DNA of 64,000 bases from a virus. Lineage: Duplodnaviria > Heunggongvirae > Uroviricota > Caudoviricetes. The notes under the pieces are model-generated. The model was not told the origin of the DNA and made no database searches. It saw nothing but the letters and a program-made list of their open reading frames with translations. Made by a program: the position numbers and the translations under genes. The number at the start of each line of letters is the position of its first letter. The first letter of the stretch is position 1. The DNA lies in IMG/VR virus record IMGVR_UViG_3300013902_000267. The stretch is one strand, 5' to 3'. Positions 33 through 62,266 of this stretch are shown in pieces.

Positions 33-103
33 TGGGATATAATGTAATGGTAACATGGAATACTCTGAATGTTCTCTTACTGGTTCGAATCCGGTTATCC
101 CAA
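33..103 (+). tRNA. tRNA-Gln (anticodon CTG)
   Basis: Manual cloverleaf. Acceptor TGGGATA/TATCCCA is a perfect 7 bp. D-stem ATGT/ACAT. Anticodon stem GAATA/TGTTC (one G-U pair), loop CTCTGAA. T-arm ACTGG-TTCGAAT-CCGGT. Discriminator A. 71 nt. Confidence 0.8.
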
Positions 104-163
104 CATATTCGTAATTTTTATTTTTTATTTTTTTTATTTTTAAAGGATTTATACATAAAGAGA

Positions 164-1712: not shown

Positions 1713-2396
1713 ATGAAACATTACGATTCAATAGATAATATAAAATATAATACTGAATTAGTAGGAGAACAAGTATGGGCATTCAATAAATTAGATGGTC
1801 AGAATTTTTGTGCTAAATATTCTGTAAAGAAAAAGGAATTTACAAATTTTGGTTCAAGAAAATGTATGGTAGATGAGACATCAGAACAATTTGGTGATGC
1901 TGTACGTTATTTTAAATCACATAATTATTCATCTATATTAAGTAATATAGTTGAAAAACATAGAGTAAAGAAAGATATATTTTGTGGTGTTGATGAAATT
2001 ACATTTTTCTTCGAATGGTATGGAGAACATAGTTTTGCAGGATTTCATTCTGAAGAAGATAAAGATAATATGCATCTTGCATTAATTGATGTGTTCATCA
2101 AAAAGAAGGGATATATTGAACCAAAGATATATATGGATCTATTTAGAGATTGTGGAATAGAATTGCCGCAATTAGTTTATACGGGACCATTATCAAATGA
2201 TTTTATTAAAGATATTCAAGAAAATGACTGGACTGAACCAAATTGTAAATTTCCTTATGTAAAGGAAGGTGTTGTAATAAGGAGATCTACTATTTTAAAA
2301 GGACAACGAATGCCTAAAGTAAAAGTTAAAACAAAATGGTGGTTAACTGAATTACATAAAAGATATACAGAAGAAGAATGTAAATTATTAGAGTAA
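1713..2396 (+). CDS. ATP-dependent polynucleotide ligase, RNA-ligase-like (KxDG nucleotidyltransferase)
   Basis: Motif I 'AFNKLDGQN' (KxDG). Motif IV-like 'EGVVIR'. Motif V-like 'KVKVKTK'. 227 aa, minimal ligase size. Confidence 0.55.
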   Translation: MKHYDSIDNIKYNTELVGEQVWAFNKLDGQNFCAKYSVKKKEFTNFGSRKCMVDETSEQFGDAVRYFKSHNYSSILSNIVEKHRVKKDIFCGVDEITFFFEWYGEHSFAGFHSEEDKDNMHLALIDVFIKKKGYIEPKIYMDLFRDCGIELPQLVYTGPLSNDFIKDIQENDWTEPNCKFPYVKEGVVIRRSTILKGQRMPKVKVKTKWWLTELHKRYTEEECKLLE

Positions 2397-2398
2397 TT

Positions 2399-2851
2399 AT
2401 GACAACAGGTGAATTAGACGAAATTGTAAAAGATATTATTAATATTTTTGGTAAACATATAAAGCTTGCAAGTTTATCAGAAAAATCATATGCAACAGGA
2501 CATGAAAATTATTATGATATAGTGTTTGAGAATACTACATCATTTACTTCACGAATGTTCGGTTATCAATATAGAAAGTTCCTTAATAATCTTGCAAGTT
2601 TAACTAATGGTGAAACAAGAAAAACAAATTCATATAAAGGATTTGTATATTATTGGTTTCCTGGATTTATTTACAAGAAAAATAATTTAAGAATTGAATT
2701 TGGAAGGAAAGGTTGGAATAGACATAGTGGTGATGATTCAACTACATGTTTTTATATGACGACTAATAACAAATATATTATTGAAGAAATTGTTAATAAT
2801 ATATTAAGAGATAGAGATATACGTATTTTAAAGAAGAATGATTATGAATAA
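2399..2851 (+). CDS. Hypothetical protein (possibly an accessory domain of the adjacent ligase)
   Basis: 150-aa ORF lying between the ligase and the HisG-like gene. Confidence 0.4.
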   Translation: MTTGELDEIVKDIINIFGKHIKLASLSEKSYATGHENYYDIVFENTTSFTSRMFGYQYRKFLNNLASLTNGETRKTNSYKGFVYYWFPGFIYKKNNLRIEFGRKGWNRHSGDDSTTCFYMTTNNKYIIEEIVNNILRDRDIRILKKNDYE

Positions 2852-3491
2852 TAAACCAACATTAGTTGTTCCAAAAGGCAGACTATATAAAGGAATTAAA
2901 CATATGTTTAATTTATGTAATATTGATATGCCTGATGAGAATACTAGACAATATTATTTCCCTGATTGGAGTGATGATTGTGCATTATTTATAGCAAAAC
3001 CTAAAGCAATACCAGAATTAATTGCAAGTAAATTCTGTGAATTCAGTATGTGCGGATATGATATTATAAAGAATAGTGAATATGAAAATGATATAGAGCT
3101 CATTAAACACACAGGACTAAATAGAGTAAAAGTATGTTTAGCTTCACGATATAATATTGATGAATTGTGTCATATGAATAAACCAGTTATTTGTGCCACA
3201 GAATTTGATGTGTTAGCAAATCATTATTTTACAAAATTAGGAATTCCACATTATATATTAAATACAGCAGGTTCAACAGAAGGATATATTGATATTGGTG
3301 CAGATTGTATTATTGATGTTGTAGAAACAGGGAAAACACTTAAAGAAAATAATATTAATATATTAGATACACTGATTGATACTGATACATGTATATTTGA
3401 ACATGCATCATTAATGGATGCAATGTTACCATCAAATATACAAATAATTTATGATCAATGGATTAATAAGACATGGGAAACGAGAATGTAA
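2838..3491 (+). CDS. hisG: ATP phosphoribosyltransferase-like protein (HisG short form)
   Basis: N-terminal 'PTLVVPKGRLYKG' matches HisG 'L-I-A-x-PKGRL'. PRPP-binding signature 'DVVETGKTLKEN' matches HisG 'DLVSTGxTL'. 217 aa. Confidence 0.65.
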   Translation: MIMNNKPTLVVPKGRLYKGIKHMFNLCNIDMPDENTRQYYFPDWSDDCALFIAKPKAIPELIASKFCEFSMCGYDIIKNSEYENDIELIKHTGLNRVKVCLASRYNIDELCHMNKPVICATEFDVLANHYFTKLGIPHYILNTAGSTEGYIDIGADCIIDVVETGKTLKENNINILDTLIDTDTCIFEHASLMDAMLPSNIQIIYDQWINKTWETRM

Positions 3492-3934
3492 AATATATAG
3501 TAGAATTTGATGGTAATGATGGCACAGGAAAAACTTATACGATAAAAGTATTATCAAAAGTTTTTTCTAACTGTATTTTTATAGATAGAGGATTATTCAG
3601 TAAAGCAACATTGCTATCAGACGAAAATGATGAAATGTATAAGTATATTGATGATAATATTGATATGAATAGAATTTATATTATATTGGATGATTATCCA
3701 GAACATTGTCAAATGCTTATAAAAAGAAGAGGAGATTCTATTGAAGAGAAATATCATACAATAGAAGATTTAGAGTATTATCGTAAACAATTTACAAACT
3801 TATATGGTTATTGTTGTAAAAAGAATTATGATAATGTTTATTTAGTTACACGATTATTACCAGATCATGTTCAGGTAATGATTGATATTATTAAGAAATT
3901 TACTAATTTTAATAAGGAAAATAATAATGAGTAA
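3473..3934 (+). CDS. P-loop nucleoside monophosphate kinase-like protein (thymidylate/dNMP kinase family)
   Basis: 'IVEFDGNDGTGKTY' matches the 'IVFEGxDGSGKTT' kinase P-loop. 153 aa. Confidence 0.5.
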   Translation: MGNENVKYIVEFDGNDGTGKTYTIKVLSKVFSNCIFIDRGLFSKATLLSDENDEMYKYIDDNIDMNRIYIILDDYPEHCQMLIKRRGDSIEEKYHTIEDLEYYRKQFTNLYGYCCKKNYDNVYLVTRLLPDHVQVMIDIIKKFTNFNKENNNE

Positions 3935-4577
3935 AATAATTATTGGTACCAGTAATCCAGGTAAGATTAGAGAAATTGCATCTATTCTTTCACCATTAGG
4001 ATATGAGATTGAACCGCATGCATTGGATGTTGATGAAACAGGAAAGACTATTAAAGATAATGCTATTATAAAAGCAAAAGCATATAGTAATGTATTTCCA
4101 GATACTTATGTTATTGCAGAAGATAGTGGATTAGTCGTTCCTAAATTGAATAATCTTCCTGGTCCGTATTCAGCAAGATTTCATGAAATTACAATAGATG
4201 ATAATTTGAATGTTATAAATGTTCCACATGAAGAATTTACTACGGATAAATCTGAACATGATAAACTTAATAATGAGAAGTTGTTGAAGTATATTAAAGA
4301 TATTCCGTTTGATGAGCGTGCAGCATATTTTGAAGTATGTTTTGTCATTGCAAAGAATGGAATTATTCAAGAAACATTTAGTGGTTATTCATATGGTTAT
4401 ATAGCAGATGAATTACGTGGAACAAATGGATTTGGTTATGATCCATTGTTTATTGGTGAGAATACATTTGGTAAGACATATGCAGAACTAGATTCTGCAA
4501 GAAAGAATTTAAAGAGTCACAGAAAGCAAGCATTGAAACAATTGGGCCTTTGGGTTTCACAGAATATAGAGAATTAA
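3927..4577 (+). CDS. Non-canonical purine NTP pyrophosphatase (Ham1/RdgB/ITPase family)
   Basis: 'MSKIIIGTSNPGKIREI' is a classic Ham1 N-terminus. The ORF track starts at 3882; the ATG at 3927 is the likely start. Confidence 0.7.
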   Translation: MSKIIIGTSNPGKIREIASILSPLGYEIEPHALDVDETGKTIKDNAIIKAKAYSNVFPDTYVIAEDSGLVVPKLNNLPGPYSARFHEITIDDNLNVINVPHEEFTTDKSEHDKLNNEKLLKYIKDIPFDERAAYFEVCFVIAKNGIIQETFSGYSYGYIADELRGTNGFGYDPLFIGENTFGKTYAELDSARKNLKSHRKQALKQLGLWVSQNIEN

Positions 4578-4583
4578 TAATAT

Positions 4584-5075
4584 ATGAAGAAATTTATTTT
4601 TCCAGGTTCATTTGATCCTTTTACAAATGGGCATAAAGCAATAGTAGATCAGACATATAAATTGTGTGATGAATTTATTATAGCATTAGCGACAAACTTA
4701 AAGAAAGGAGAAGGACTTATTAAACGTCCTGAGCGTATTAAGTTAATTAAAGAGATTTTTAAAGATTATCCGAATGTAAAGGTAATTGATATGACAGATA
4801 CCTTGATTTCTGATTATTGTAAAAAGAATGGAGTTTCTTATATTGTTAGAGGTATCAGAAATTCGGAAGACTTTACATATGAAAAATCATTGGCAGCTAC
4901 TAACCATTATTTGGCAGGTGTAGAAACAATGTTGGTAATGGGTTTTTGCGAACCATATAATATTGATATTTCATCTACATTCGTTAGAGAATTGGTACAT
5001 TATAAATTACCTATTGGTGAGTTTGTTCCACCAGTTGTTGAACAATATATTAAAGATAATAATTTAACATGGTAA
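4584..5075 (+). CDS. Cytidylyltransferase-fold nucleotidyltransferase, PPAT (CoaD)-like; NMNAT-like activity not excluded
   Basis: 'FPGSFDPFTNGH' is the (T/H)xGH motif. C-terminal 'ISSTFVREL...FVPPVV' resembles PPAT. 163 aa. Confidence 0.6.
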   Translation: MKKFIFPGSFDPFTNGHKAIVDQTYKLCDEFIIALATNLKKGEGLIKRPERIKLIKEIFKDYPNVKVIDMTDTLISDYCKKNGVSYIVRGIRNSEDFTYEKSLAATNHYLAGVETMLVMGFCEPYNIDISSTFVRELVHYKLPIGEFVPPVVEQYIKDNNLTW

Positions 5076-5938
5076 ATAAGATTCAAGAAGAAGATTTAAA
5101 AGCAGTTGAGTATTGTAAAACTGTATTATATCCTAAATGGAATATCAAAGATTTGTATTCTATAGATTTTGATACATTTAGAAAAATGCCGTTGGTTGTA
5201 GAAGGTGAAAGTAAAGAGATACGTGCATTGGATGATGATTATTGTATCATTTATTTTAAACCTACAATTTATTCATTTACATATAATAGAACTGGTATTG
5301 TAGAAGGAAGTAATATTCCACGTGTTCATGTAAGTAAAGTATTGTGTGAGTTACTTAAAGAAAATGGTATTAAACATGCATATCTAGATTATGGTGATGA
5401 ATTTGTATTAGCACGCATAATTAAAGATACACCTAATATTGAAGTTGTTGTAAAAGCAAATCATACAGGTACAAGTAAACATAGATATTTTGGTATGGGT
5501 AAATCACATGTAAGAATGTCACATCCATATTATTCGGGAATGAAAATTAAAGACATGGAACCATATCCAGCACCTATTGTAAGATTTGATTGGCGAAATC
5601 CATTTTGGGAACCAAATACACATAAGATGTTAGCTGATGAAGTTATGTGCGATGATCAAGCAGATTATTATATTGATGTTAAGAAAGCAAAGAAAACTGC
5701 AGCACTAACATTCAGTGTATTAAGTGATTTTCTTGCAAGTAAAGATATTGTTATTTATGATTTGTGTTTGTTTATATCAGAAGATGGTGAAACAGTATAT
5801 GGAGAAATTTCACCAGATTGTGGAAGATATAGACATTATGATTTAGGAAGTCTTGATAAGGATGTATGGCGTGCAGGAGGTTCATCAGATCAGGTATTGG
5901 AGAAGTGGAATTTACTGTATAAAATGATTACACAATAA
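5069..5938 (+). CDS. SAICAR-synthetase (PurC)-like ATP-dependent ligase
   Basis: 'LVVEGESKEIRALDDDYCIIYFKPT' resembles PurC 'LYRGKAKTVY..DLLVLEF'. C-terminal 'GEISPDCGRYRHYD' resembles PurC 'DEFSPDGSRLWD'. Confidence 0.5.
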   Translation: MVNKIQEEDLKAVEYCKTVLYPKWNIKDLYSIDFDTFRKMPLVVEGESKEIRALDDDYCIIYFKPTIYSFTYNRTGIVEGSNIPRVHVSKVLCELLKENGIKHAYLDYGDEFVLARIIKDTPNIEVVVKANHTGTSKHRYFGMGKSHVRMSHPYYSGMKIKDMEPYPAPIVRFDWRNPFWEPNTHKMLADEVMCDDQADYYIDVKKAKKTAALTFSVLSDFLASKDIVIYDLCLFISEDGETVYGEISPDCGRYRHYDLGSLDKDVWRAGGSSDQVLEKWNLLYKMITQ

Positions 5939-19300: not shown

Positions 19301-19425
19301 TTCCAGGAACTATGATAACATTTATGAACTATATGACAAAAAATACATAGAGAACAACAGAATTCTCTGTAAGTAGTGAAATAGACGAAAACACATTACA
19401 AAAAAATAGTAATAATGATAAATGA
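16336..19425 (+). CDS. Large tail fibre/baseplate-like protein (about 1029 aa) with an N-terminal G/S/D/N-rich low-complexity region and a C-terminal peptidase-M15 domain; TAG-recoded (more than 20 TAG)
   Basis: One frame from ATG 16336 to TGA 19423-19425. Track fragments 16612, 17380, 17827 and 18856 are all in the same frame. M15 motifs 'SHLYGEAIDI' and 'HYHIG' near the C-terminus. Confidence 0.6.
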
Positions 19426-19429
19426 AAAT

Positions 19430-19460
19430 AAGGGAATAGATATTTGTAATCTATTCCCTT
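19430..19460. terminator. Bidirectional terminator hairpin (AAGGGAATAGAT / ATCTATTCCCTT) between convergent genes
   Basis: Perfect 12-bp stem read directly, with T-run TTTATT. Confidence 0.6.
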
Positions 19461-19467
19461 TATTATA

Positions 19468-20433
19468 TTAAATATGTTTTCTTTTTAATATTTGAATAAA
19501 TTCATCTTCAGTTATTTGAGCACCTGCTGCACCTTCATGTCCTCCACCATGATAATATTCTTGAAGATATTTACCACAATGGAATTCATGTGTATCTGTA
19601 GGATTATACAATGAAATTGCCCACATACCATCAGGTAATCTCTTAAATACAATACCGTTTTTGATTTTATCTTTACATGTTTTAAATATCTGTGAATTTG
19701 TTGGTTTCTGAATAAACAAAGCACATGCAGATCGATTATCAAATCCTACAGTCCATGTAAAATCACCATATGAATTAATGAGGTTCTTATTGTTTCTATC
19801 AATAATCTCTGATTCTAACTTACCTAATTCTTTAAGTTTCCCTAGTTCACATGCTAATTCTTCTGGTTTTGCTTGATATATTATATAATATACATGATTA
19901 ATAATTTCACTTACATTTAAATCATATTTATTATTAACACCAATGTTTACATATCTACAAAAATCAAAATTAATATTCTCCGCATCATAACTCCAGCTAT
20001 CCCATGCAGACAATACTTTAAACAAATCCGGTATTCTTCCAATAAAATTATACAAATAGCTAAAAGCATTATATAATGCAGAATGATCGATTGTCCTTAA
20101 ACCCTGAATATCGTCAAAATGTAATTCTTTTGAACTATTAATCATAGGCGCATGATGGTCAAACCAATATAGTTTATCACCAAAATGTTTTTTCAGTTTA
20201 AGCATTGTTTCTGCTGTATCAAACGAAATATCTGATATATAAACATAATCATATACACCTATAATATCATTTTGAATATTTAAGTTCTCCATCCCATTAT
20301 AATCTTCACCTAATAGTGTGATCATATTTGGATGTATTCCTTTTTCAATTACAAGAAAATTATATATGATAGCCATCGAAAATAAACCATCATTATCTTC
20401 CTTGTGATATATAATTAAATATTTGTCATCCAT
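19468..20433 (-). CDS. DHH-DHHA1 family phosphoesterase (NrnA/RecJ-like nanoRNase or oligonucleotide phosphodiesterase)
   Basis: Motif I 'YHKEDNDG'. Motif III 'FDHHAP'. DHHA1 'GGGHEGAAG'. 321 aa. Confidence 0.65.
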   Translation of the reverse strand: MDDKYLIIYHKEDNDGLFSMAIIYNFLVIEKGIHPNMITLLGEDYNGMENLNIQNDIIGVYDYVYISDISFDTAETMLKLKKHFGDKLYWFDHHAPMINSSKELHFDDIQGLRTIDHSALYNAFSYLYNFIGRIPDLFKVLSAWDSWSYDAENINFDFCRYVNIGVNNKYDLNVSEIINHVYYIIYQAKPEELACELGKLKELGKLESEIIDRNNKNLINSYGDFTWTVGFDNRSACALFIQKPTNSQIFKTCKDKIKNGIVFKRLPDGMWAISLYNPTDTHEFHCGKYLQEYYHGGGHEGAAGAQITEDEFIQILKRKHI

Positions 20434-20445
20434 TATATTATTAAT

Positions 20446-20631
20446 TTAATAATTAGTTTTCTGTTTCTCTAACATTTCTATTGCTTTTGCTTGTCTATCT
20501 ACTGTCTCTTGAAGTTGTTCACACTTATATTTGTAATAATGAGCTTCACCAGCTGCAATCAATATACAAACACATGTAAGTCCCAATATATAAATATCAA
20601 GCTTATTAAAAATCTTTTTTATTGTTTCCAT
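20446..20631 (-). CDS. Small membrane protein (one TM plus a coiled coil); spanin- or holin-like
   Basis: 'IYILGLTCVCILIAA' TM segment followed by a charged helical tail. Confidence 0.35.
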   Translation of the reverse strand: METIKKIFNKLDIYILGLTCVCILIAAGEAHYYKYKCEQLQETVDRQAKAIEMLEKQKTNY

Positions 20632-31598: not shown

Positions 31599-32393
31599 TT
31601 ACTTTCCAAGAATTAAATTAGGAATTCCGTGACTACCAACATATGTTTTTGGTAGTTCTCCTGTCCATTTTTCAATTGCCATTTTTTGAATAAGCAAAGG
31701 TGTAAGAGACTGTTCTTTCAACTTATTTGCTTTAGCTTCTGCTTCTGCAAGAACAATCTTTTTCTTTGCTTCTGCTTCTGCCACGCGTATCTCATTGCTG
31801 ACTCGCATTTCATCTTGTATAGCTTTGTTTTTAGCATTAATAGCTTCTTCATAAGATTTCGGATAACCAATACCTGGTGTTAGTTGCTGAAGAATAAAAT
31901 GTTCTTTTGCAAATGATTTTCTAACTCTATCCTCAAATGATTTATCAACTGATTCTCGATTTGATACAATCTGATCTGCTGTATACTTGTTGAATTCAAT
32001 ACGAGCAGCGTCTCTAATATATACATATAATGTATTCTTTACAATATCATCAAGTTGCTTACGATATTTCTTAAATATAATAGGCGATTTCCCATCTTCT
32101 ATTTTTACAAGAACTGCTGGATCAACTGTAAATTTTGTTCCATCTTTACTGTTTACTTCAAATGATGGATAATCTACTGTCTGAATATATGTAGGATATT
32201 CAAATACGTCATTCGTAAATGGACAATACCATTTAACGCCTGTACATAGACTTACTTCACCCACACCCTTATCATCACCATAAAGATTTACATAAATACC
32301 TTCACACCCTGCGTCTATCCTCTCATACCAGCAAGATGTCAAACTCATACATGCTATAATAGCAACAATAAAATTCAATAGAATTTTCTTCAT
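31599..32393 (-). CDS. SPFH/band-7 (stomatin/prohibitin-like) domain lipoprotein
   Basis: Signal peptide plus lipobox 'MSLTSC'. SPFH-like C-terminus with 'RVAEAEAKKKIVLAEAEAK'. Confidence 0.5.
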   Translation of the reverse strand: MKKILLNFIVAIIACMSLTSCWYERIDAGCEGIYVNLYGDDKGVGEVSLCTGVKWYCPFTNDVFEYPTYIQTVDYPSFEVNSKDGTKFTVDPAVLVKIEDGKSPIIFKKYRKQLDDIVKNTLYVYIRDAARIEFNKYTADQIVSNRESVDKSFEDRVRKSFAKEHFILQQLTPGIGYPKSYEEAINAKNKAIQDEMRVSNEIRVAEAEAKKKIVLAEAEAKANKLKEQSLTPLLIQKMAIEKWTGELPKTYVGSHGIPNLILGK

Positions 32394-32418
32394 ATAAAAT
32401 TATATTTTAAATAGTTAA

Positions 32419-32670
32419 TTAATGTTGTATATTCTTATTCATTTCTTTTTGTCTCTTCATATATCTAATATAAAAATCATTATAATATCGCAATACAATA
32501 ATACAGCAATATATAGTAAATAATATAACAAATAACGCTACAATATTTAAAATCGTAGATGTTACAGAAAGTAATGTAGGTATTGCATATCCAAACATTA
32601 CAACCAGCAGAATAATAAATCCTGATGTTACTGTATAAATTCCTAATTTTCTAAGTGGATTATGATACAT
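32419..32670 (-). CDS. Small two-TM membrane protein (holin-like candidate)
   Basis: Two hydrophobic segments followed by a basic C-terminus. Confidence 0.3.
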   Translation of the reverse strand: MYHNPLRKLGIYTVTSGFIILLVVMFGYAIPTLLSVTSTILNIVALFVILFTIYCCIIVLRYYNDFYIRYMKRQKEMNKNIQH

Positions 32671-32739
32671 AGTTTTAATTTTTATAATTATAATTTTATA
32701 TAATTATTTATTACATTTGTCTACTTTTAATATAAAGAA

Positions 32740-32769
32740 AAGAGAATAACAAGTTAATGTTATTCTCTT
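32740..32769 (-). terminator. Rho-independent terminator downstream of htpG (AAGAGAATAACA / TGTTATTCTCTT)
   Basis: Perfect 12-bp stem with a U-run on the minus strand. Confidence 0.65.
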
Positions 32770-32779
32770 CAATATAAAA

Positions 32780-34816
32780 TTACTTTTCAATCATCTTAAT
32801 AGATCTCTTAACGAATTTCGCTAAATCTTCACCTTGAAGCAAACCATACTGCAACAATGCAATATCAATCAACTCGTGAATATGATTATCTGTATGTGCA
32901 TGATTATTGATGATTTCTTTCTTCTTCTCTAGGACTTTATCAAGTTCTTCCTTAATAGGTTTCTTTGCATCATCATTTTCTGCGTTTTCAAGGCGTGAAT
33001 TAATGTCTTTAACTTGTTCATTAATTTCATTAATTGCAGGTCCAATTTCTTTTTCTGCAATCTTAATAATTTTCTTAACAACCTTTGAATCTGCATTAAT
33101 TACAAATTTAATATTTGCATTATCCTCAAGATACATACCAGCATTATTAAGCATAGACATTTCTTTCATACGACGGAAGAACTCATCTGCGATAATAGTA
33201 ATAGGCAAAGCATCCTTGCCATCTTGCTTAACCTGGAATTGATGTGTAATCTTAGGAAGATTCAAATCAATACAATCAAACAAAGAAATAAGCATACTAA
33301 TAATATTATCAGAAATTGGTTTAACTTTCTTTGTATCATCTTCTTTCTGAATAAGTTCCTCTGGTACTGCAGAGTCAATTCTCTTAAATGTTACATTCTT
33401 ATCCTGAAGTTTCATCTCGAATGTATGAACTTCAAATGCACCATATTGACTATTAAACAACAAGATGTTATATCCATATTCCTTCAATGCTTCAATATAT
33501 GTATATTGTGTAGCAGTATCATATGTATAAAGATATACAATCTTTCCATTCTTATCTTTCTGTGTCTCTAATACCTTATCATAATATTCATCAAAAGTAT
33601 ACATCTTATTATCTGTATCAACAAGAAGAATAATATCCTTTGCCTTGTCAAAAATATTAGGCTCCGTTACAACACCAAGGTTAATAAATGTTTTAATCGT
33701 CTCCCATTTCTTTTCATATGTTTCACGATCTTTCTTCATAAGAGTTCTCAATGAACTCATTACCTTATTTGTAATATGTGAACTAATCTTCTTAACATTC
33801 GCATCATTCTGAAGAACTGATCTTGAAACATTCAAAGGAATATCAGGGGAATCAATCACACCATGAAGAAGACTCAAATAATCTGGCAATACACCATCAA
33901 CATCATCTGTAACGAATACGCGGTTACAATACAAATTCAAATGTCTACGTTCAAAAATAGGATGTTTTTGATCGAATGCTGGGAAATAAAGAATACCCTT
34001 AAATGTAAATGGTGTATCAATATTAATATGAATCCAGAAAAGAGGGTCAGGTCTACCAGGAAATGTATCCTTATAAAACTTAATATAATCTTCATCTTTA
34101 AGTTCTGATGCAGACTTCAACCACAATGGTTCATCTCTTGTAATCAAATTTTCTGTAGGCTCTGGATATGTAACTTCACCTGTAGACGCATCTGTTGTAG
34201 GTGCAGGAATATCTTTAAGATAAATCTTTACAGGAAGATATTCAGCATATTTCTTAAGAAGTTCAGAAAGTTTTGAATTATTTACATATTCCTTATACTC
34301 ATCAGAAATATGCATAATTACATCTGTACCAACAGTTTCTTTATCATCATCTACAAGAGTAAATTCTGTTGTTCCTTCACAAGTCCAACGACATGCTGTT
34401 GAACCTTCCTTATAACTCTTTGTGACAATCTCAACCTTTGAACTCACCATGAAACTTGAATAGAATCCAAGTCCAAAATGTCCAATAATCTGAGTATCTT
34501 TATATTTCTCAAGAAAATCATTAGCACCCGAAAATGCAATCTGATTAATATACTTCTCTACTTCATCAGCAGTCATACCGATACCCATATCAGATACAGT
34601 AATAGTATTATCTTCATGATTAATAGATACTGTAACTTTCAAATCATCGGGATTTGCATTATACTCATTTGCGCTAATAACCTTAACAAGTTTCTCTGTT
34701 GCATCAACTGCATTACTAACAATCTCACGGATAAAAATATCCTGATCGTTGTACATGAACTTTTTTATCAATGGAAAAATATCCTAACTAGTAACTCCAA
34801 TATTACCTTTTTGCAT
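32780..34816 (-). CDS. htpG: Hsp90-family molecular chaperone HtpG, with a TAG codon at position 11
   Basis: 'IFIREIVSNAVDA' HATPase signature. Reading through TAG (plus 34784-34786) restores a Bacteroides-type N-terminus 'MQKGNIGVTS-Q-DIFPLIKKFMYND' (matched from memory). The track ORF 32780..34771 starts at an internal Met. Confidence 0.8.
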
Positions 34817-54264: not shown

Positions 54265-55302
54265 TTATGCTTGATACGAATACTTGTCAAACAATGATTC
54301 AATATTAGAGGGATGCACAGCATTTATGCCGATTTCATTGCATTTTTTCAATGTATCATGGAAATCATCTATAAGACATACATCCTTAACATTCCACTTC
54401 ATTTTATGAGCAAACTGCTCAATAAAAACGTGCTTATAATTTTTATTTCCGACAAACATTCGGTTCTCAACAGGAATCTCTGGGAAATATTTATCAAGCC
54501 ATTCATTCTTCTCATTCCACGCTATTGAATTAGCACATGCAGTCACAATATAAACATTCTTCATGTCATAATGTTTCTTAACAAAATCAATGATATGTTT
54601 AACAGGCTTCAAATTTTTAAATAGTTCGCTACTTACAAAATCTGAATTTCCGTTAATATCAAGTTTTGCCTTGCCATAACAAGCTAATGTACCATCCATG
54701 TCAAGAAGTAAATACTTATTGGTAAAATAATCAACGCGAATGAATTCATCTACCAATGGGATGTACTTATTCTTACATGCTTCAATACGTAAATTTTTCT
54801 TATAAATATCTTCAATTGGAACTTTACGAGTTCTTCCTTGAAGTCTATTTATACAAACTTCTACAGGAGTATCAAAGAATATACAAGTAATCTTATCTAC
54901 ATTTTTATTTCTTAAATAATCTATAATACTAAGATTATAATGATTATTAATTCCACCGCCGTCAAGAATAACATTACAATTAATCTTTGAACTATCTGCA
55001 ATAGCAAAAATTATTTTTCGTGTTATTTGAACCGACTCTTCATGAACAACTTCCGGATGTTCATCAGTATAACCTTTTAACAATGGTTTAATTTCATCAG
55101 CAGAAATTACTATTGTTTCATTTATACAAAGATTATCTTCAATTGTCTGAATAATTTTATCTAAATTACATTCATCAAATGGTTTATCTAAAATAGATGT
55201 TAACCATTCAATGAGATGCAAAATATTTGGATAATTCTCTTGAAGATATGTACTTTTACCAGATGCAGGCAAACCGAGGAAGTACGAGAACTTACTGATC
55301 AT
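54265..55302 (-). CDS. pnk: Polynucleotide 5'-kinase/3'-phosphatase (T4 Pnk-like)
   Basis: N-terminal P-loop 'GLPASGKSTY'. C-terminal HAD phosphatase 'LLLDMDGTLA' resembles T4 'IFDVDGTLA'. 'CLIDDFHDTLKKCNEIGINAV' resembles T4 '[23 protein letters not shown]'. Confidence 0.7.
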   Translation of the reverse strand: MISKFSYFLGLPASGKSTYLQENYPNILHLIEWLTSILDKPFDECNLDKIIQTIEDNLCINETIVISADEIKPLLKGYTDEHPEVVHEESVQITRKIIFAIADSSKINCNVILDGGGINNHYNLSIIDYLRNKNVDKITCIFFDTPVEVCINRLQGRTRKVPIEDIYKKNLRIEACKNKYIPLVDEFIRVDYFTNKYLLLDMDGTLACYGKAKLDINGNSDFVSSELFKNLKPVKHIIDFVKKHYDMKNVYIVTACANSIAWNEKNEWLDKYFPEIPVENRMFVGNKNYKHVFIEQFAHKMKWNVKDVCLIDDFHDTLKKCNEIGINAVHPSNIESLFDKYSYQA

Positions 55303-55327
55303 AACTAAAATATAATTTAATTTTTAA

Positions 55328-56911
55328 TTAGTCAACAGTTCCATCAAGAAGTTTATGAACTGCATCTTGACGAGTCTTTCGGATTTCAGCAAGTGTAAAC
55401 TCTCTTACTAACTTACCATCTTCAAAAACAGTCTTCAATTCATTCTTATCTGATGCTTCCTCTTCAGGCGTTACACGATCAACTGGTACATACTTACCAT
55501 TACCATCTTTTACAACCATAAGAAGTCCACGATGTGATTTCTTTGGCATACCGCATACTGTTTTAGGATCCTTATAAATTTCTATAGGTTTGCCATTAAC
55601 TTTACACCATGTAGACTTACAGGCTATGCCTAAAGAATCTCTGGATCGTACATTATAAGTAAAGCTTCCTATACCTTCAATAAGGTTAGTTGCTGCGAAA
55701 CCCTTATCTTCAAGTTGAGAATATGTATCCTTTTGGCGTTTCATATTAATTGAGTCTCCATAAAGAAGTCCAATATGTGGATCAAGAATTTTATATCCTT
55801 TTTCATTAAATGTTCCACCGAACGTATTCCAAAGAAATTCATAAGAACCCATCTTTACAAATGGATCTTCTGCTTCCGGATCACCACAAATAATTTTAAC
55901 AGGATCACCACTATCAGGACGAATTACTACACGCCCATTACGAGACATAATTTGTTCTTTATACTTAGGAACAATCTTTGTCAAGAAATACCAATAATCA
56001 TAACCATCTGCAACAATTGAAATAATACCATCTGGAAATTCATCAAGCATATTCTTAAAATAAACTTCATCATTTGGCTTACCTGTTTCATCTGTTGCAT
56101 TAGAGCACTCAATAGAATGTTCAGTAGCTGGAACAGTTGCAGCTATCAATTCTTTTTTAGGATCTGCATTATAATAATACTCAATCATCTTAATTGCTGG
56201 AACTGTTTCAGAACCACAAAAAGAAGTAAGATGTGCCATACCAGAAACAATAGATGCTTCAAATGAACTCATTCCTCTCATAGAGAAATCATGACATAGA
56301 AATGCAAGATTAGACATATCGTTAGGATTATAAAAACCAGTTTTCATAGCATGTCTAACAAGTTCACGTTTAAATACATCAGCTGTTGTTGCAGAAGTAA
56401 TTGGAAGCCAAAGGACATTTGAAGTCAAAGACTCCAAATAATTTGTGAGCCAAGCAAAATCAGGATGTGTATTTGTGATTGTTAAAATAGGGCATCCGAT
56501 TGGACAATATGAACCTTCAGGAAGTGCCTTAATACGAATAGGAAGATAACCAAGTTTATGCAATGCAATAATATGATCAACCCCTACTTTCTTTGCAACT
56601 GCTTCTCCTAGAAATGTAGTTGTCAAATCTGTATAAGTTTTTCGTACAGTATCTTCATCAAGATTAAAGAAATAATTATTAAATGTATTAATAAGATACT
56701 TCTTAATAAAATACTGAATACCAAACACAACTGCTCCCTCTGTAGCTTCCGGAAAATATTTATTACTACGAGGAGTAAAGTTACTGAAAAGTTGCGTCAT
56801 TCCCTTAGGGTACATACAGTGATGACCAAGCTTGTAGCCATCTGTCATAAGCATTGCATTAAGAAGTATGTCTTCTACCAATACATGCTGTGAATCTTTT
56901 ACGTTTGTCAT
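55328..56911 (-). CDS. nadV: Nicotinamide phosphoribosyltransferase-family protein (NadV/NAMPT-like; a Namat-type enzyme cannot be excluded)
   Basis: 'MLMTDGYKLGHHCMYP' resembles the NAMPT N-terminal 'DSYKVTHYKQYP'. 527 aa. Confidence 0.65.
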   Translation of the reverse strand: MTNVKDSQHVLVEDILLNAMLMTDGYKLGHHCMYPKGMTQLFSNFTPRSNKYFPEATEGAVVFGIQYFIKKYLINTFNNYFFNLDEDTVRKTYTDLTTTFLGEAVAKKVGVDHIIALHKLGYLPIRIKALPEGSYCPIGCPILTITNTHPDFAWLTNYLESLTSNVLWLPITSATTADVFKRELVRHAMKTGFYNPNDMSNLAFLCHDFSMRGMSSFEASIVSGMAHLTSFCGSETVPAIKMIEYYYNADPKKELIAATVPATEHSIECSNATDETGKPNDEVYFKNMLDEFPDGIISIVADGYDYWYFLTKIVPKYKEQIMSRNGRVVIRPDSGDPVKIICGDPEAEDPFVKMGSYEFLWNTFGGTFNEKGYKILDPHIGLLYGDSINMKRQKDTYSQLEDKGFAATNLIEGIGSFTYNVRSRDSLGIACKSTWCKVNGKPIEIYKDPKTVCGMPKKSHRGLLMVVKDGNGKYVPVDRVTPEEEASDKNELKTVFEDGKLVREFTLAEIRKTRQDAVHKLLDGTVD

Positions 56912-57106
56912 AAAATAATTTGTTTAAATTTTAATTTGATTACAATAATAATTTGTTTGTTTAATTATCTTGTAATCATTATTTATATATATTATTAATT
57001 AAATTGTTTATAAAATTCATATTAAAAAAATAACATCCTATTTTCACAAACAAGATGTTAATAATTCAAAGACATATTTATTTGAAAATTAAGTTGCGAA
57101 ATTAAT

Positions 57107-59147: not shown

Positions 59148-60137
59148 CTATGTTTCCTCATCAGCTTTTAATTTTGGATATGCAGCTCTAAGTATCTGTA
59201 ATACACGTGTTTCTGTCATTCCATGTTCTTCTGCAACTTGCCATGTATTCTTTTCACCACGTCCATTAATACCATAGCAATCACATACAATTTCACCATC
59301 TCTTTCACCAAGAACTCTCTTTACATTATCTTCAAGTTCTCTTTCAAGATCAGCGTTATTAAGATTACTATCAGGGTCTTTAAATGTCCTATTAGCTGTT
59401 ACATCACCTAATGTTGTTTTAGAATCATCATCATCCCCGTATGATTTATCCAAACTATTTGCACGTGTATTTGCTTCCATTGTTTGTGCAAATGTTTCAT
59501 ATTTCAAATCTGGATGTTTCTTTACGAGAACATTATAAATATCATCAATATCAGGTTCATAACCATTCTTATTATATAATTGATCCTTGATACGAGCGGC
59601 TTCACGAGCAATACTACCCATATTACGGGGAACTGCCATATGTCCACCTACCTCATCAACAGCAGTCATAATTTCTCTACGAATATACCAAATAGCATAA
59701 GAAACAAAACGTACATCTTTACCTGGCAAACTTGGATCATATGTATCTGCTGCTTGCATAAGTCCTATATTTCCATATTGAATCATATCTTCCTTTGGTA
59801 TATTAATATTTTTATACTTATTGACAACAGAAATAACAAATGGAAGATTTGCGGACACCAACTTATTCTTTGCCTTTTCAATTTCTCTCTTATTATCAGA
59901 ATGTTGAATAATATCAGCAAGTTTCACTTCATCTGCATGTGATAATTGTTTTTTCTTATTAATAGCATGTAAATATGCAATAGTAGACTTTGCTGTATTT
60001 TCATCCTGTGTAATAGCAAAATCATCATGCAAATCCATATGCATTCCATTATTAGCTTCATTGAGTTTCTTTCTAATAGTCTTAGAAACATTTCTCATGA
60101 TACTTTCATACAATGTCTTCTTTTCATTTAACTTCAT
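59148..60137 (-). CDS. Sigma-70 family RNA polymerase sigma factor
   Basis: Region 2 'GNIGLMQAADTYDPS...RFVSYAIWYIRREI'. Region 4 'TWQVAEEHGMTETRVLQILRAAYPKLK'. 329 aa. Confidence 0.7.
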   Translation of the reverse strand: MKLNEKKTLYESIMRNVSKTIRKKLNEANNGMHMDLHDDFAITQDENTAKSTIAYLHAINKKKQLSHADEVKLADIIQHSDNKREIEKAKNKLVSANLPFVISVVNKYKNINIPKEDMIQYGNIGLMQAADTYDPSLPGKDVRFVSYAIWYIRREIMTAVDEVGGHMAVPRNMGSIAREAARIKDQLYNKNGYEPDIDDIYNVLVKKHPDLKYETFAQTMEANTRANSLDKSYGDDDDSKTTLGDVTANRTFKDPDSNLNNADLERELEDNVKRVLGERDGEIVCDCYGINGRGEKNTWQVAEEHGMTETRVLQILRAAYPKLKADEET

Positions 60138-60231: not shown

Positions 60232-60789
60232 TTATTCTATATTTAATATTTGTTTAATCTTTACTATGTCATCCTGTGTTATACCTGAATAACTATCTAT
60301 TTTTATAAAGTTATCCTGTTGATATGTCATCATATCATCATCGTCATCTACTATACAATAATCTATTCTTAATTCATCATCTTTAAATTTAAAATAATCT
60401 TCATCATAAAATTGTTTATAGTTTCGCACATTTGTATTTCCGCTATACATAAGGAAATAATGAATTTCATTTCCTCTTATTGAGTGTTCATCATGATATT
60501 TTGGTGTTATACCTACTATATATTTAATTAAACATTTCAAATCTTTATACTTATCAAACGCATATTTTGTTGCTTCTAATGAAATCTCTCTCCATGACGA
60601 TGATATAACTAATCTTACATTATAATTCTCACATAATTGTTCTATAAGTTTTACTGCATTTTTGTCTACAAAATGATCACCATTTTCTTCATTTATATAT
60701 TTCTTTCCTTCCTTTGTAAAACACCAATTCGCATATTGTTCAGAATTCAAAACACCGTCTATGTCTAAAAATAATATTTTTATATTCAT
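60232..60789 (-). CDS. HAD-superfamily phosphatase
   Basis: 'ILFLDIDGVLN' HAD motif I. 185 aa. Confidence 0.55.
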   Translation of the reverse strand: MNIKILFLDIDGVLNSEQYANWCFTKEGKKYINEENGDHFVDKNAVKLIEQLCENYNVRLVISSSWREISLEATKYAFDKYKDLKCLIKYIVGITPKYHDEHSIRGNEIHYFLMYSGNTNVRNYKQFYDEDYFKFKDDELRIDYCIVDDDDDMMTYQQDNFIKIDSYSGITQDDIVKIKQILNIE

Positions 60790-62091: not shown

Positions 62092-62187
62092 TGGATATAG
62101 ATGGACTCGAACCACCATGTATCTGCCCTAGAATTATGATACAAACTAACATCATATTAGTCGCGTTTACCATTTCGCCATATATCC
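62092..62187 (-). tRNA. Type II (long-variable-arm) tRNA, about 96 nt. The anticodon loop TATGATG gives TGA (Ser) if canonical, but position 33 is atypical
   Basis: Acceptor GGATATA/TATATCC. T-arm GGTGG-TTCGAGT-CCATC. Anticodon stem ACTAA/TTAGT. Unusually long variable arm (stem TGTATC/GATACA with a 14-nt loop). Confidence 0.45.
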
Positions 62188-62193
62188 ATATAG

Positions 62194-62266
62194 CAGGCCT
62201 GATGAGATTCGAACTCACAACAACATGATTAAAATTCGTGTGCTCTACCAATTGAGCTACAGGCCC
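62194..62266 (-). tRNA. tRNA-Lys (anticodon TTT)
   Basis: 5' GGGCCTGTAGCTCAATTGGTAGAGCA... T-arm GTGAG-TTCGAAT-CTCAT. Anticodon loop ATTTTAA. 73 nt. One C-A mismatch in the anticodon stem. Confidence 0.65.

What the first reader, a model, noticed from the sequence alone, without database searches (positions are those of the whole stretch)
55328..56911. NAMPT/NadV-family phosphoribosyltransferase next to Pnk: candidate NAD+ reconstitution (anti-NADase counter-defense)
A 527-aa NadV/NAMPT-like enzyme is encoded here. Phage NadV-based pathways rebuild NAD+ after depletion by Thoeris, DSR, SIR2 or SEFIR-type defenses. Known versions pair NadV with an NMN adenylyltransferase (NARP2-type), or pair a NAMPT-like Namat with a Prs-like ADPR pyrophosphokinase (NARP1-type). 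The only adenylyltransferase-fold enzyme here is the PPAT-like protein at 4584-5075, far away, and no Prs homolog was seen. So the pathway may be incomplete in this window, or non-canonical.
Basis: partly seen in the sequence, partly recalled or inferred. Interest (0 to 1): 0.7.

Follow-up and report, generated by a model that had tools for sequence, protein, structure and literature searches.

The report
Phage NAD-rebuilding enzyme Namat, split pathway
This gene of a giant gut phage (Lak-B7) encodes Namat, the last enzyme of a known phage pathway that rebuilds NAD+ after bacterial defences destroy it; its partner enzyme lies 223 kb away, and the kinase/phosphatase gene next door is a recurrent, apparently undescribed companion of this pathway.

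Summary
Window 55328-56911 (-) is an intact 527-aa NAMPT-family ORF. The window is Prevotella megaphage Lak-B7 (MK250026.1).

The protein is a NARP1-type Namat, not a NARP2-type NadV/Nampt and not a housekeeping PncB. It is 48-49% identical to validated Namats and 31% to KVP40-like Nampts. It falls in the Namat clade with 100% bootstrap and carries Namat-only motifs.

The "missing" partner exists outside the window. A Prs-like Adps lies about 223 kb away, next to a small HAD-type phosphatase. The genome also has an adjacent NadR-like/PnuC pair (NARP3-like). The PPAT-like gene is a CoaD and is not implicated.

This exact protein is already listed as "Adps-associated" in Osterman et al. 2024, so the core call is not new.

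What I could not find in the literature I searched is the role of the neighbour. The "Pnk" gene (54265-55302) encodes a P-loop kinase plus an NT5C-type HAD phosphatase with a T4-Pnk-like fold. Its homologues sit inside or beside NARP1 operons in many unrelated phage contigs. One contig (L048) has Namat-Pnk-HAD-Adps as a translationally coupled four-gene operon. Lak appears to carry that module split in two. The substrate of the kinase/phosphatase is unknown.

The parts
55328..56911 (-). Namat: nicotinamide ADP-ribose transferase, a NAMPT-family enzyme and the last step of NARP1. 527 aa. Corresponds to MK250026.1 positions 194839-196422.
   Evidence: ORF confirmed. Family scans. 459 bits to SPbetaL1 Namat 9W5X against 206 bits to human NAMPT. 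48-49% identity to validated Namats against 31% to NARP2 Nampts, with Namat-only motifs. Namat clade at 100% bootstrap. Listed as 'Adps-associated' in Osterman 2024 Table S2.
54265..55302 (-). Pnk-like bifunctional protein: N-terminal P-loop (AAA_33-type) kinase plus C-terminal NT5C-type HAD phosphatase. 345 aa. Candidate accessory enzyme of an extended NARP1 module; substrate unknown.
   Evidence: Pfam NT5C at 31.7 bits (cut-off 24.8), a sub-threshold AAA_33 match, and PHROG 505/415 'polynucleotide kinase'. AF2 model with pLDDT 95; best PDB match is T4 Pnk 2IA5 at E 9e-11. Catalytic residues of both domains are invariant in 78 homologues. Homologues lie inside or beside NARP1 operons in many unrelated contigs.
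55303..55327 (-). 25-bp spacer between Namat and the Pnk-like gene. Five of the six other Lak-B genomes checked (B1, B3, B5, B6, B9) have about 0.9 kb of extra sequence here, seen directly only in Lak-B1.
   Evidence: Coordinates. The insertion in Lak-B1 was mapped by blastn, and its ORF has two LAGLIDADG motifs and six in-frame TAG codons. The insert in the other Lak-B genomes is inferred from the spans of the matches.
56912..57106 (-). 195-bp intergenic region upstream of Namat. A possible promoter region; nothing was demonstrated.
   Evidence: Coordinates. The sigma-70-type scan found fewer sites than in shuffled sequence and no terminator, so this is uninformative.

Best explanation
The ORF encodes Namat, the second enzyme of NAD+ reconstitution pathway 1 (NARP1).

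Proposed mechanism:
1. A host NADase effector (SIR2, TIR, SEFIR or DSR type) cleaves NAD+ into ADP-ribose and nicotinamide.
2. The phage Adps, encoded at MK250026.1 419730-420599 (about 223 kb from Namat and outside the window), pyrophosphorylates ADP-ribose with ATP to give ADPR-PP.
3. Namat replaces the pyrophosphate with nicotinamide and regenerates NAD+ directly.

These steps were shown experimentally for the SPbetaL1, Bas63 and FADO homologues. For Lak-B7 they are inferred from homology.

The co-oriented downstream gene encodes a kinase plus HAD phosphatase. I infer that it is an accessory enzyme of the same module. With the small HAD phosphatase next to Adps, it probably converts some other phosphorylated NAD-breakdown product into a NARP1 substrate. 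Which product is not known.

In Lak the ancestral Namat-Pnk-HAD-Adps operon has been split into two pairs.
For: Identity of the enzyme:
- 9W5X/9W5W are SPbetaL1 Namat.
- Against validated Namats (FADO, SPbetaL1) identity is 48-49%. Against KVP40-like D480, Matisse and human it is 31-32%.
- It shares the motifs DFSMRGM, PATEHS, RPDSGDP and YGDS, the long TPRSNKYFPEA loop, and GIGSFTYN where Nampts have GMGGGLLQ. The definition of the selectivity clamp comes from PMC12774641.
- In an NJ tree the Namat clade has 100% bootstrap. Lak-B7 lies in a 100% subclade, sister to crAss-like Namats at 98%.

The partner:
- The Lak-B7 genome encodes an Adps homologue. It is 47% identical to cr111_1 (E 1e-75) and matches FADO Adps at E 3e-16.
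- It scores 190 bits against PHROG 619, the same family as FADO Adps.
- It falls below every canonical Prs cut-off, as FADO Adps does.
- It keeps the catalytic Lys (NKVRD), the DDLCDGGGTF PP-loop, RMDR, AHS and PDHGA (residues defined).

Literature:
- Osterman et al. list this protein as 'Adps-associated' and list the Lak-B7 Adps homologue.

The accessory gene:
- L048 has Namat, Pnk-like, HAD and Adps with overlapping start and stop codons.
- Seven more IMG/VR contigs have the order Adps, Pnk-like, Namat.
- All 9 metagenome look-ups of Pnk-like homologues (34-58% identity) have Namat within 6 kb, and 8 of 9 also have Adps.
- The cultured cyanophage Lbo-JY46 has a homologue 1.4 kb upstream of a Namat-like gene, with an annotated PrsA in the same locus.
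- In 47 of 80 loci anchored on the small HAD, the order is Namat, HAD, Adps.
Against: - No biochemistry or infection data exist for any Lak or crAss-lineage enzyme.
- Two ligand-contact positions differ from SPbetaL1 Namat. D215, which contacts nicotinamide, is Glu (GSET). This is shared with the crAss-like and Lak-like subclades.
- One of the two adenine-stacking aromatics of the clamp helix, Y396, is Val. Relatives in the subclade have Leu or Met there. Substrate preference could therefore differ.
- Namat and Adps are not adjacent. In the published survey 97% of Adps genes have a Namat nearby, and the Lak-B7 Adps homologue is flagged 'No'. Co-expression is unproven.
- Whether Prevotella hosts of Lak carry NAD-depleting defences was not examined.
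- The link between the Pnk-like gene and NARP1 rests only on gene neighbourhood. Nine IMG/VR loci with 33-34% homologues show no NARP1 gene within 7 kb.
Confidence: 0.8

Rival explanations
1. The enzyme works mainly as a classical Nampt, making NMN from PRPP and nicotinamide. The NadR-like NMN adenylyltransferase encoded elsewhere in Lak-B7 then finishes NAD+. That would be a NARP2-like route.
For: The genome has a NadR-like protein with CTP_transf_like and AAA_28 domains (E 6e-28 to E. coli NadR), adjacent to PnuC. SPbetaL1 Namat retains about half of human Nampt's NMN-forming activity in vitro. One clamp aromatic is lost in Lak.
Against: Clade membership and Namat-specific motifs point the other way. 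An Adps partner is present in the genome and is operon-linked in close relatives. No Prs is present to supply PRPP. Osterman et al. found no phage with both NARP1 and NARP2.
Confidence: 0.1
2. The gene is a general auxiliary metabolic gene. It raises NAD+ supply for phage replication in a very large genome, independently of any host defence.
For: NAD+ synthesis genes (NAMPT, PnuC, NadR) are common in gut jumbo phages. The original Lak paper already noted nicotinate/nicotinamide genes and pnuC as possible energy-metabolism genes.
Against: NARP1 uses the direct products of NADase cleavage and makes no excess NAD+ unless depletion has happened. One close relative, L125, has a Tad2-like anti-Thoeris gene immediately upstream of Namat. 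Known NARP1 accessory genes all process defence-derived ADPR derivatives.
Confidence: 0.07
3. The Pnk-like neighbour is a true RNA-end healing enzyme, like T4 Pnk, that counters anticodon nucleases. It merely co-localises with NARP1 in anti-defence gene islands.
For: The best two-domain structural match is T4 Pnk, followed by Pnkp1 of an RNA repair complex. RNA ligase genes occur near some loci: L127 and L134. HAD_SAK_2 'RNA repair' domains occur upstream of Namat in the window and in L125, L052, L063 and L072. The window itself has an RNA ligase at 1713-2396.
Against: The gene sits between Adps and Namat, or between Namat and HAD-Adps, often with overlapping start and stop codons, in many unrelated contigs. 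The phosphatase half is of the mononucleotidase type, NT5C or T5 dNMPase, rather than the T4 Pnk type. No RNA ligase is adjacent in Lak.
Confidence: 0.35
4. The protein is a housekeeping nicotinate phosphoribosyltransferase (PncB type) with no partner.
For: NCBIfam NF006629 and some GenBank records use the name 'nicotinate phosphoribosyltransferase'.
Against: It has a NAMPT_N domain, is 32% identical to human NAMPT over its full length, and falls in the Namat clade. Partners are present in the genome.
Confidence: 0.01

Closest known systems
NARP1 (Adps + Namat) of phages SPbetaL1, Bas63 and FADO (Osterman et al. 2024; Namat structures 9W5X/9W5W)
   Same: Same two enzyme families. 48-49% identity to validated Namats. 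The catalytic core and most selectivity-clamp features are conserved. The Adps homologue keeps the catalytic Lys and PP-loop. The protein is already listed as 'Adps-associated' in that paper's Table S2.
   Different: Namat and Adps are about 223 kb apart instead of adjacent. D215 is Glu and Y396 is Val. Two extra enzymes, a kinase/HAD phosphatase and a small HAD phosphatase, belong to the ancestral operon.
NARP1-AP (NARP1 plus the Macro-domain ADPR-1''P phosphatase Adpp; Osterman et al. 2026 preprint) and RyDEP-associated NARP1
   Same: Same concept: the NARP1 core is extended by an enzyme that converts a non-canonical NAD-derived product into ADPR.
   Different: The accessory proteins here are HAD-superfamily phosphatases and a P-loop kinase, not Macro or RyR domains. 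Their substrates are unknown. I did not search the genome for Macro-domain genes.
crAss-like phage NARP1 loci (cr111_1, DAC15, DAC17)
   Same: These are the closest non-Lak relatives in GenBank (55-57% identity by tblastn). They have the same small HAD gene (PHROG 1238, mislabelled 'phosphoheptose isomerase') between Namat and Adps, and the same GSET substitution.
   Different: They lack the Pnk-like gene, and all three genes are contiguous.
NARP2 (KVP40 Nampt + Nmnat)
   Same: Same NAMPT superfamily and the same overall purpose.
   Different: A different clade (31% identity), with GMGGGLLQ in place of the GSFTY clamp. No KVP40-type pairing is evident.
NARP3 (Bas30 NadR-like + PnuC; Yan et al. 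2026)
   Same: Lak-B7 carries an adjacent NadR-like/PnuC pair at record 31849-33655.
   Different: That pair is outside the window and is not the object of this finding. NARP3 was reported as largely restricted to Enterobacteriaceae phages.
T4 polynucleotide kinase/phosphatase (for the neighbouring gene)
   Same: Same domain order, a P-loop kinase with a catalytic Asp followed by a DxDxT phosphatase. T4 Pnk is the best fold match.
   Different: Only 16% identity. The phosphatase half is of the NT5C/dNMPase type. The genomic context is NARP1, not RNA ligase.

Membership tests
Namat (NARP1 nicotinamide ADPR-transferase) | Falls in the Namat clade, separate from Nampt, in a phylogeny that includes validated members | tested here: met
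   NJ tree of 22 sequences. The Namat clade, including FADO and SPbetaL1, has 100% bootstrap. Pairwise identity is 48-49% to Namats against 31% to Nampts.
Namat (NARP1 nicotinamide ADPR-transferase) | Conserved NAMPT-like catalytic core (SPbetaL1 F189, S190, R192, D215, catalytic His, R306, D308, G360, D361) | tested here: met
   DFSMRGM, PATEHS, RPDSG and YGDS are present. The one change is D215 to Glu, which is also found in crAss-like and Lak-like relatives.
Namat (NARP1 nicotinamide ADPR-transferase) | Selectivity-clamp helix motif G-S-X-phi-X-phi-X-phi-T-R-D with aromatics at positions 3 and 7, plus a clamp loop whose third residue is R, K or Y | tested here: inconclusive
   Lak has GSFTYNVRSRD. 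The length and position 3 (Phe) fit. Position 7 is Val, not aromatic, and Thr is replaced by Ser. The loop S-N-K-Y fits the Bas63 type, with Lys third and an aromatic fourth.
Namat (NARP1 nicotinamide ADPR-transferase) | An Adps homologue in the same genome | tested here: met
   Record 419730-420599, also listed in Osterman Table S1.
Namat (NARP1 nicotinamide ADPR-transferase) | Adps and Namat adjacent in one operon (97% of published cases) | tested here: not met
   They are about 223 kb apart and on opposite strands in Lak-B7. Table S1 flags 'No'. Close relatives L048, L124, L125 and L126 do have them together.
Namat (NARP1 nicotinamide ADPR-transferase) | Prefers ADPR-PP over PRPP and yields NAD+ | not testable with these tools
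   Requires enzyme assays.
Nampt/NadV of NARP2 | Clade of KVP40 Nampt, with GxGGxLLQ in place of the clamp helix and a short beta1-beta2 loop | tested here: not met
Nampt/NadV of NARP2 | An Nmnat homologue in the same genome | tested here: inconclusive
   A NadR-type NMNAT is present at record 31849-33006, but it is paired with PnuC. I had no KVP40 NatV sequence to use as a query.
PncB-type housekeeping nicotinate phosphoribosyltransferase | Lacks the NAMPT_N domain and groups with PncB | tested here: not met
   NAMPT_N is present. Full-length match to human NAMPT and Namat structures.
Canonical Prs (for the distant partner) | Reaches the curated Prs model cut-offs | tested here: not met
   TIGR01251 gives 70.5 bits against a cut-off of 113, and every other Prs model is also below cut-off. 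The validated FADO Adps behaves the same way, at 96.5 bits.
T4-type polynucleotide kinase/phosphatase (for the neighbour at 54265-55302) | P-loop kinase with a catalytic Asp, followed by a DxDxT phosphatase, with a matching fold | tested here: met
   K16, D69, D201 and D203 are invariant. 2IA5 is the best match at E 9e-11.
T4-type polynucleotide kinase/phosphatase (for the neighbour at 54265-55302) | Acts on nucleic-acid ends and is partnered with an RNA ligase | not testable with these tools
   Activity cannot be tested here. No ligase is adjacent; the nearest RNA ligase is 52 kb away in the window.
NARP3 (elsewhere in the genome) | Adjacent NadR-like (NMNAT + NR kinase) and PnuC-like transporter genes | tested here: met
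   L003 31849-33006 and 32993-33655, with overlapping ends. Pfam CTP_transf_like + AAA_28, and NMN_transporter at 147.6 bits.

The most novel reading that the evidence does not exclude
The Pnk-like kinase/NT5C-type phosphatase (window 54265-55302) and the small HAD phosphatase next to Adps may be undescribed accessory enzymes of an extended, four-gene NARP1. They would let phages of Bacteroidota and other hosts rebuild NAD+ from a phosphorylated breakdown product that the two-gene pathway cannot use.

Candidate substrates, all speculative:
- ADPR-1''-phosphate made by RES-type defences.
- ADPR-cyclic phosphate, formed when ADPR-PP decays.
- 2'-phospho-ADPR derived from NADP+.
- The kinase could phosphorylate ADPR-1''P directly to ADPR-PP, by analogy with PhnN, which makes PRPP from ribose 1,5-bisphosphate. 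That analogy is from my own knowledge and was not tested.

If true, it would also point to a still unrecognised mode of NAD+ destruction by host defences.
Probability: 0.4. Interest if true: 0.7.

Novelty: new variant of a known kind. Interest (0 to 1): 0.5.

Why it matters
The core call is already in the literature. Lak-B7 encodes a NARP1 Namat and a distant Adps, so on its own it only confirms that the largest known gut phages carry NAD+ counter-defence.

The added value is the gene neighbourhood. A conserved kinase/phosphatase and a small HAD phosphatase recur inside NARP1 operons in many uncultured phages and in at least one cultured cyanophage. The small HAD is also present in the cultured crAss-like phages DAC15 and DAC17.

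Earlier NARP1 add-ons each revealed a distinct host defence chemistry: the Macro phosphatase Adpp pointed to aRES, and RyDEP to cyclic ADPR signals. These two enzymes are therefore concrete, testable leads to further NAD-centred attack and repair chemistry in gut Bacteroidota.

Lak-B7 also carries a NARP3-like NadR/PnuC pair. That pathway was reported as largely restricted to phages of Enterobacteriaceae.

Tried and rejected
- Sigma-70 promoter and terminator scan around the two genes: fewer promoter-like sites than in shuffles and no terminator, so uninformative.
- Rfam search for a group I or II intron in the insertions of Lak-A1 and Lak-B1: no hit.
- PDB entry 9KE8 as a possible KVP40 Nampt reference: its source could not be identified. 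It is at most 58.5% identical to any phage record and clusters within the Namat clade, so I used it only as an unlabelled sequence.
- NMNAT role for the PPAT-like gene: rejected. It passes the CoaD equivalog cut-off and fails all NMNAT models. It sits among RNA ligase, HisG-like, Ham1 and PurC-like genes.
- Tad2 homologue in Lak-B7: none found by tblastn with the L125 Tad2-like protein.
- Small neighbouring ORFs (181-aa upstream ORF, 136-aa, 77-aa, 59-aa and others): no meaningful Pfam or PHROG hits, and conserved only in Lak-like contigs.
- NadD-type NMNAT in the genome: no phmmer hit under code 11 or code 15 ORF sets.
- The first bootstrap tree script timed out. I reran it with a faster distance routine.
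- Structure prediction of the small HAD protein was not possible, because it lies outside the window. I did not predict a Namat structure.
- I did not search the genome for Macro-domain (Adpp) genes, because I had no query sequence.
Full report
**Observation.** The ORF listing shows an ATG-initiated 527-aa ORF at exactly 55328..56911 on the minus strand. It ends in TAA. It scores 489.9 bits on NCBIfam NF006629 (cut-off 405) and E 3e-176 on PHROG 448, 'nicotinamide phosphoribosyl transferase'. It matches Pfam NAPRTase and NAMPT_N.

**Source of the window.** Megablast shows the window is 100% identical to Prevotella phage Lak-B7, MK250026.1, a 550,702-bp circular MAG from baboon faeces. I fetched the rest of the genome in pieces. 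The overlaps verified that window position 1 is record position 139512. Lak phages read TAG as Gln, genetic code 15. The two genes of interest contain no in-frame TAG and are intact under code 11.

**Which kind of NAMPT-family enzyme.** Two experimentally defined phage classes exist.
- Namat belongs to NARP1. It joins nicotinamide to ADPR-PP, which is made by the Prs-like enzyme Adps.
- Nampt/NadV belongs to NARP2. It makes NMN from PRPP, and an Nmnat finishes NAD+.

The evidence places the Lak protein with Namat:
- The best solved-structure matches are 9W5X/9W5W (459 bits), which are SPbetaL1 Namat. Human NAMPT scores 206 bits and Xanthomonas Nampt 191 bits.
- In an alignment with labelled references it is 48-49% identical to the validated Namats of FADO and SPbetaL1, and 59% to crAss-like cr111_1. 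It is 31% identical to the KVP40-like Nampt of Vibrio phage D480 and to Klebsiella phage Matisse, and 32% to human NAMPT.
- It carries the Namat-type motifs DFSMRGM, PATEHS, YGDS, a long TPRSNKYFPEA beta1-beta2 loop, and GIGSFTYN. Nampts have GMGGGLLQ in that last position.
- In a 22-sequence NJ tree the Namat clade is separated from Nampts with 100% bootstrap. Lak-B7 sits in a 100%-supported subclade with four metagenomic phages, sister at 98% to crAss-like phages.

Lan et al. defined an adenine 'selectivity clamp' for Namat. In the clamp helix, Lak matches the motif length, Phe392, Arg399 and Asp400. Tyr396 is Val and Thr398 is Ser. The clamp loop, S-N-K-Y, is of the Bas63 type. Asp215, which contacts nicotinamide, is Glu. 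That change is shared with the crAss-like and Lak-like subclades.

So clade membership is firm. The fine substrate preference is inferred, not shown.

**The missing partners.** A tblastn of the assembled genome with Adps queries found one Prs-like gene, at record 419730-420599 on the plus strand, about 223 kb from Namat.
- It is 47% identical to the cr111_1 Adps.
- It falls in PHROG 619 together with the validated FADO Adps.
- It is below every canonical Prs cut-off, as FADO Adps is.
- It keeps the catalytic Lys hairpin (NKVRD), the DDLCDGGGTF PP-loop and the acceptor-site residues (residues defined).

Immediately upstream of it is a 151-aa protein with a DxDxT motif. It belongs to PHROG 1238 and weakly matches the 'BT0820 family HAD-type phosphatase'. 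The database name 'phosphoheptose isomerase' looks like a mislabel.

A phmmer search of all ORFs, under both code 11 and code 15, used E. coli NadR and NadD as queries. It found a NadR-like protein (CTP_transf_like + AAA_28) at record 31849-33006. It overlaps the start of a PnuC transporter (NMN_transporter, 147.6 bits). This is a NARP3-like pair. No NadD-type enzyme was found.

The PPAT-like gene at window 4584-5075 passes the CoaD equivalog cut-off and fails all NMNAT models. It lies in a cluster with RNA ligase, HisG-like, Ham1 and PurC-like genes. I see no reason to link it to this pathway.

**Prior knowledge.**
- Supplementary Table 2 of Osterman et al. 2024 lists MK250026_00282 with exactly this sequence, labelled 'Adps-associated'.
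- Their Table 1 lists the Lak-B7 Adps homologue with 'No' for 'Namat within 10 genes'.
- The original Lak paper mentioned nicotinate/nicotinamide genes and pnuC.
- A 2024 survey showed that NAD+ synthesis genes are common in gut jumbo phages.

The core assignment is therefore already known.

**The neighbour.** The gene 25 bp downstream, 54265-55302, encodes 345 aa.
- It has an N-terminal P-loop kinase domain (AAA_33 and Zeta-toxin-like hits).
- It has a C-terminal HAD phosphatase that passes the Pfam NT5C cut-off.
- In 78 homologues the Walker A Lys, a putative catalytic Asp (SADEIK), three lid Arg residues, the DxDxT motif, and the Lys and DD motifs of the HAD are all invariant.
- An AlphaFold2 model has pLDDT 95.2 and pTM 0.90.
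- Foldseek gives T4 polynucleotide kinase/phosphatase as the best two-domain match (E 9e-11, 16% identity). The phosphatase half also resembles deoxyribonucleotidase-like proteins.

So 'Pnk' is fair as a description of the fold.

**Context of the neighbour.** I anchored an IMG/VR search on the small HAD. In 47 of 80 loci the order is Namat, HAD, Adps. One 84-kb contig (L048) carries Namat, Pnk-like (66% identical to Lak), HAD and Adps, with every junction overlapping.

I then anchored on the Pnk-like protein:
- Six Lak-like contigs have Namat followed by Pnk.
- One is the four-gene contig, L048.
- Seven further diverse contigs have the order Adps, Pnk-like, Namat, with the Pnk-like protein only 32-41% identical to Lak.
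- Nine loci, seven of them near-duplicates, have no NARP1 gene within 7 kb.

Nine of nine context look-ups of metagenomic homologues (34-58% identity) show a Namat within 6 kb, and eight of the nine also show an Adps. They include a 307-kb contig with Namat, Pnk and Adps. Another has HAD_SAK_2, a Tad2-like gene, Namat, Pnk, HAD and Adps.

Among 50,697 GenBank phage records the family occurs only in the 15 Lak genomes and in the cultured cyanophage Lbo-JY46. In that phage it lies 1.4 kb upstream of a Namat-like gene, with an annotated PrsA in the same locus.

That distribution may explain why published surveys of operons in isolate genomes did not report it. In the papers I could search, the only described NARP1 add-ons are the Macro phosphatase Adpp and the RyR-domain glycosidase RyDEP.

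**Interpretation.**
- Shown for homologues: Adps and Namat rebuild NAD+ from ADPR, nicotinamide and ATP, and they overcome SIR2-HerA, Thoeris, DSR and SEFIR defences.
- Inferred for Lak-B7 from homology: the same chemistry, with the two genes in different parts of the genome.
- Inferred from neighbourhood only: the kinase/phosphatase and the small HAD belong to the same functional module, and Lak's two gene pairs are the halves of an ancestral four-gene operon.
- Speculative: these enzymes convert a phosphorylated NAD-breakdown product into a NARP1 substrate.

The main rival for the neighbour is genuine RNA-end repair that is merely co-located with NARP1. I give that rival about one chance in three.

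**Verdict.** The finding is real and the function class is right. The core is already catalogued. The recurrent kinase/phosphatase and HAD accessories, and the split architecture, make this a new variant of a known kind, of moderate interest.

Noticed in passing
MK250026.1 31849-33655 (locus L003), outside the window: Adjacent NadR-like (NMNAT + NR-kinase domains) and PnuC transporter genes with overlapping ends. This is a NARP3-like pair in a Prevotella megaphage that also has NARP1. NARP3 was reported as largely restricted to phages of Enterobacteriaceae.
   Followed up: partly
MK250026.1 419239-419694 (locus L010 21239-21694), outside the window; also L002 7481-7912 and many IMG/VR loci: A small HAD-type phosphatase (PHROG 1238, annotated 'phosphoheptose isomerase' in RefSeq) lies between Namat and Adps in 47 of 80 related loci and next to Adps in Lak. 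It may be a non-Macro counterpart of the NARP1-AP phosphatase.
   Followed up: partly
Lak-B1 locus L130 1526-2444, equivalent to the window 55303-55327 spacer: Lak-B1 carries a roughly 920-bp insertion between Namat and the Pnk-like gene that Lak-B7 lacks. Its ORF has two LAGLIDADG motifs and six in-frame TAG codons, which fits a homing endonuclease read in code 15. The spans of the matches suggest that B3, B5, B6 and B9 carry it too.
   Followed up: partly
Lak-A1 locus L131 1875-3312, equivalent to about window 55624-55686: In Lak-A1 the Namat gene is interrupted inside the codons of the clamp-helix motif, between GIG and FSY, by about 1.4 kb. The insert holds a GIY-YIG/T5orf172-like ORF with eight in-frame TAG codons, bounded by TAA stops. 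It looks intron-like, but no Rfam intron model matched. Similar endonuclease-bearing interruptions of Namat, or insertions beside it, occur in L127 and L136.
   Followed up: partly
window 1713-5938 (+): A nucleotide-metabolism cluster: RNA ligase (1713-2396), HisG-like ATP phosphoribosyltransferase (2838-3491), Ham1/ITPase (3882-4577), CoaD/PPAT (4584-5075) and a SAICAR-synthetase-like gene (5069-5938). A HisG-like and a CoaD gene in a phage are unusual and unexplained.
   Followed up: no
window 60232-60789 (-): A HAD_SAK_2 ('Swiss Army Knife RNA repair') domain protein lies 3.3 kb upstream of Namat. Homologues lie about 1 kb upstream of Namat in L125, L052, L063 and L072, which suggests a loose association with NARP1 loci.
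   Followed up: partly
window 59148-60137 (-): A phage-encoded sigma-70 family factor (regions 2, 3 and 4) sits between the HAD_SAK_2 gene and the Namat region.
   Followed up: no
window 62092-62266 (-) and 33-104 (+): tRNA genes: Lys(TTT) and Gln(CTG) by ARAGORN. Rfam finds an additional tRNA-like hit at 62092-62187 (96 nt, possibly intron-containing) that ARAGORN did not call.
   Followed up: no
locus L125 3060-3359: A Tad2-like (Thoeris anti-defence 2) gene lies immediately upstream of the Namat-Pnk-HAD-Adps operon in a 180-kb metagenomic phage contig. This supports a counter-defence context. No homologue was found in Lak-B7.
   Followed up: partly
window 19400-20500: GC skew and coding strand switch sign near 20 kb. 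Genes lie on the plus strand before it and on the minus strand from there up to about 62 kb.
   Followed up: no
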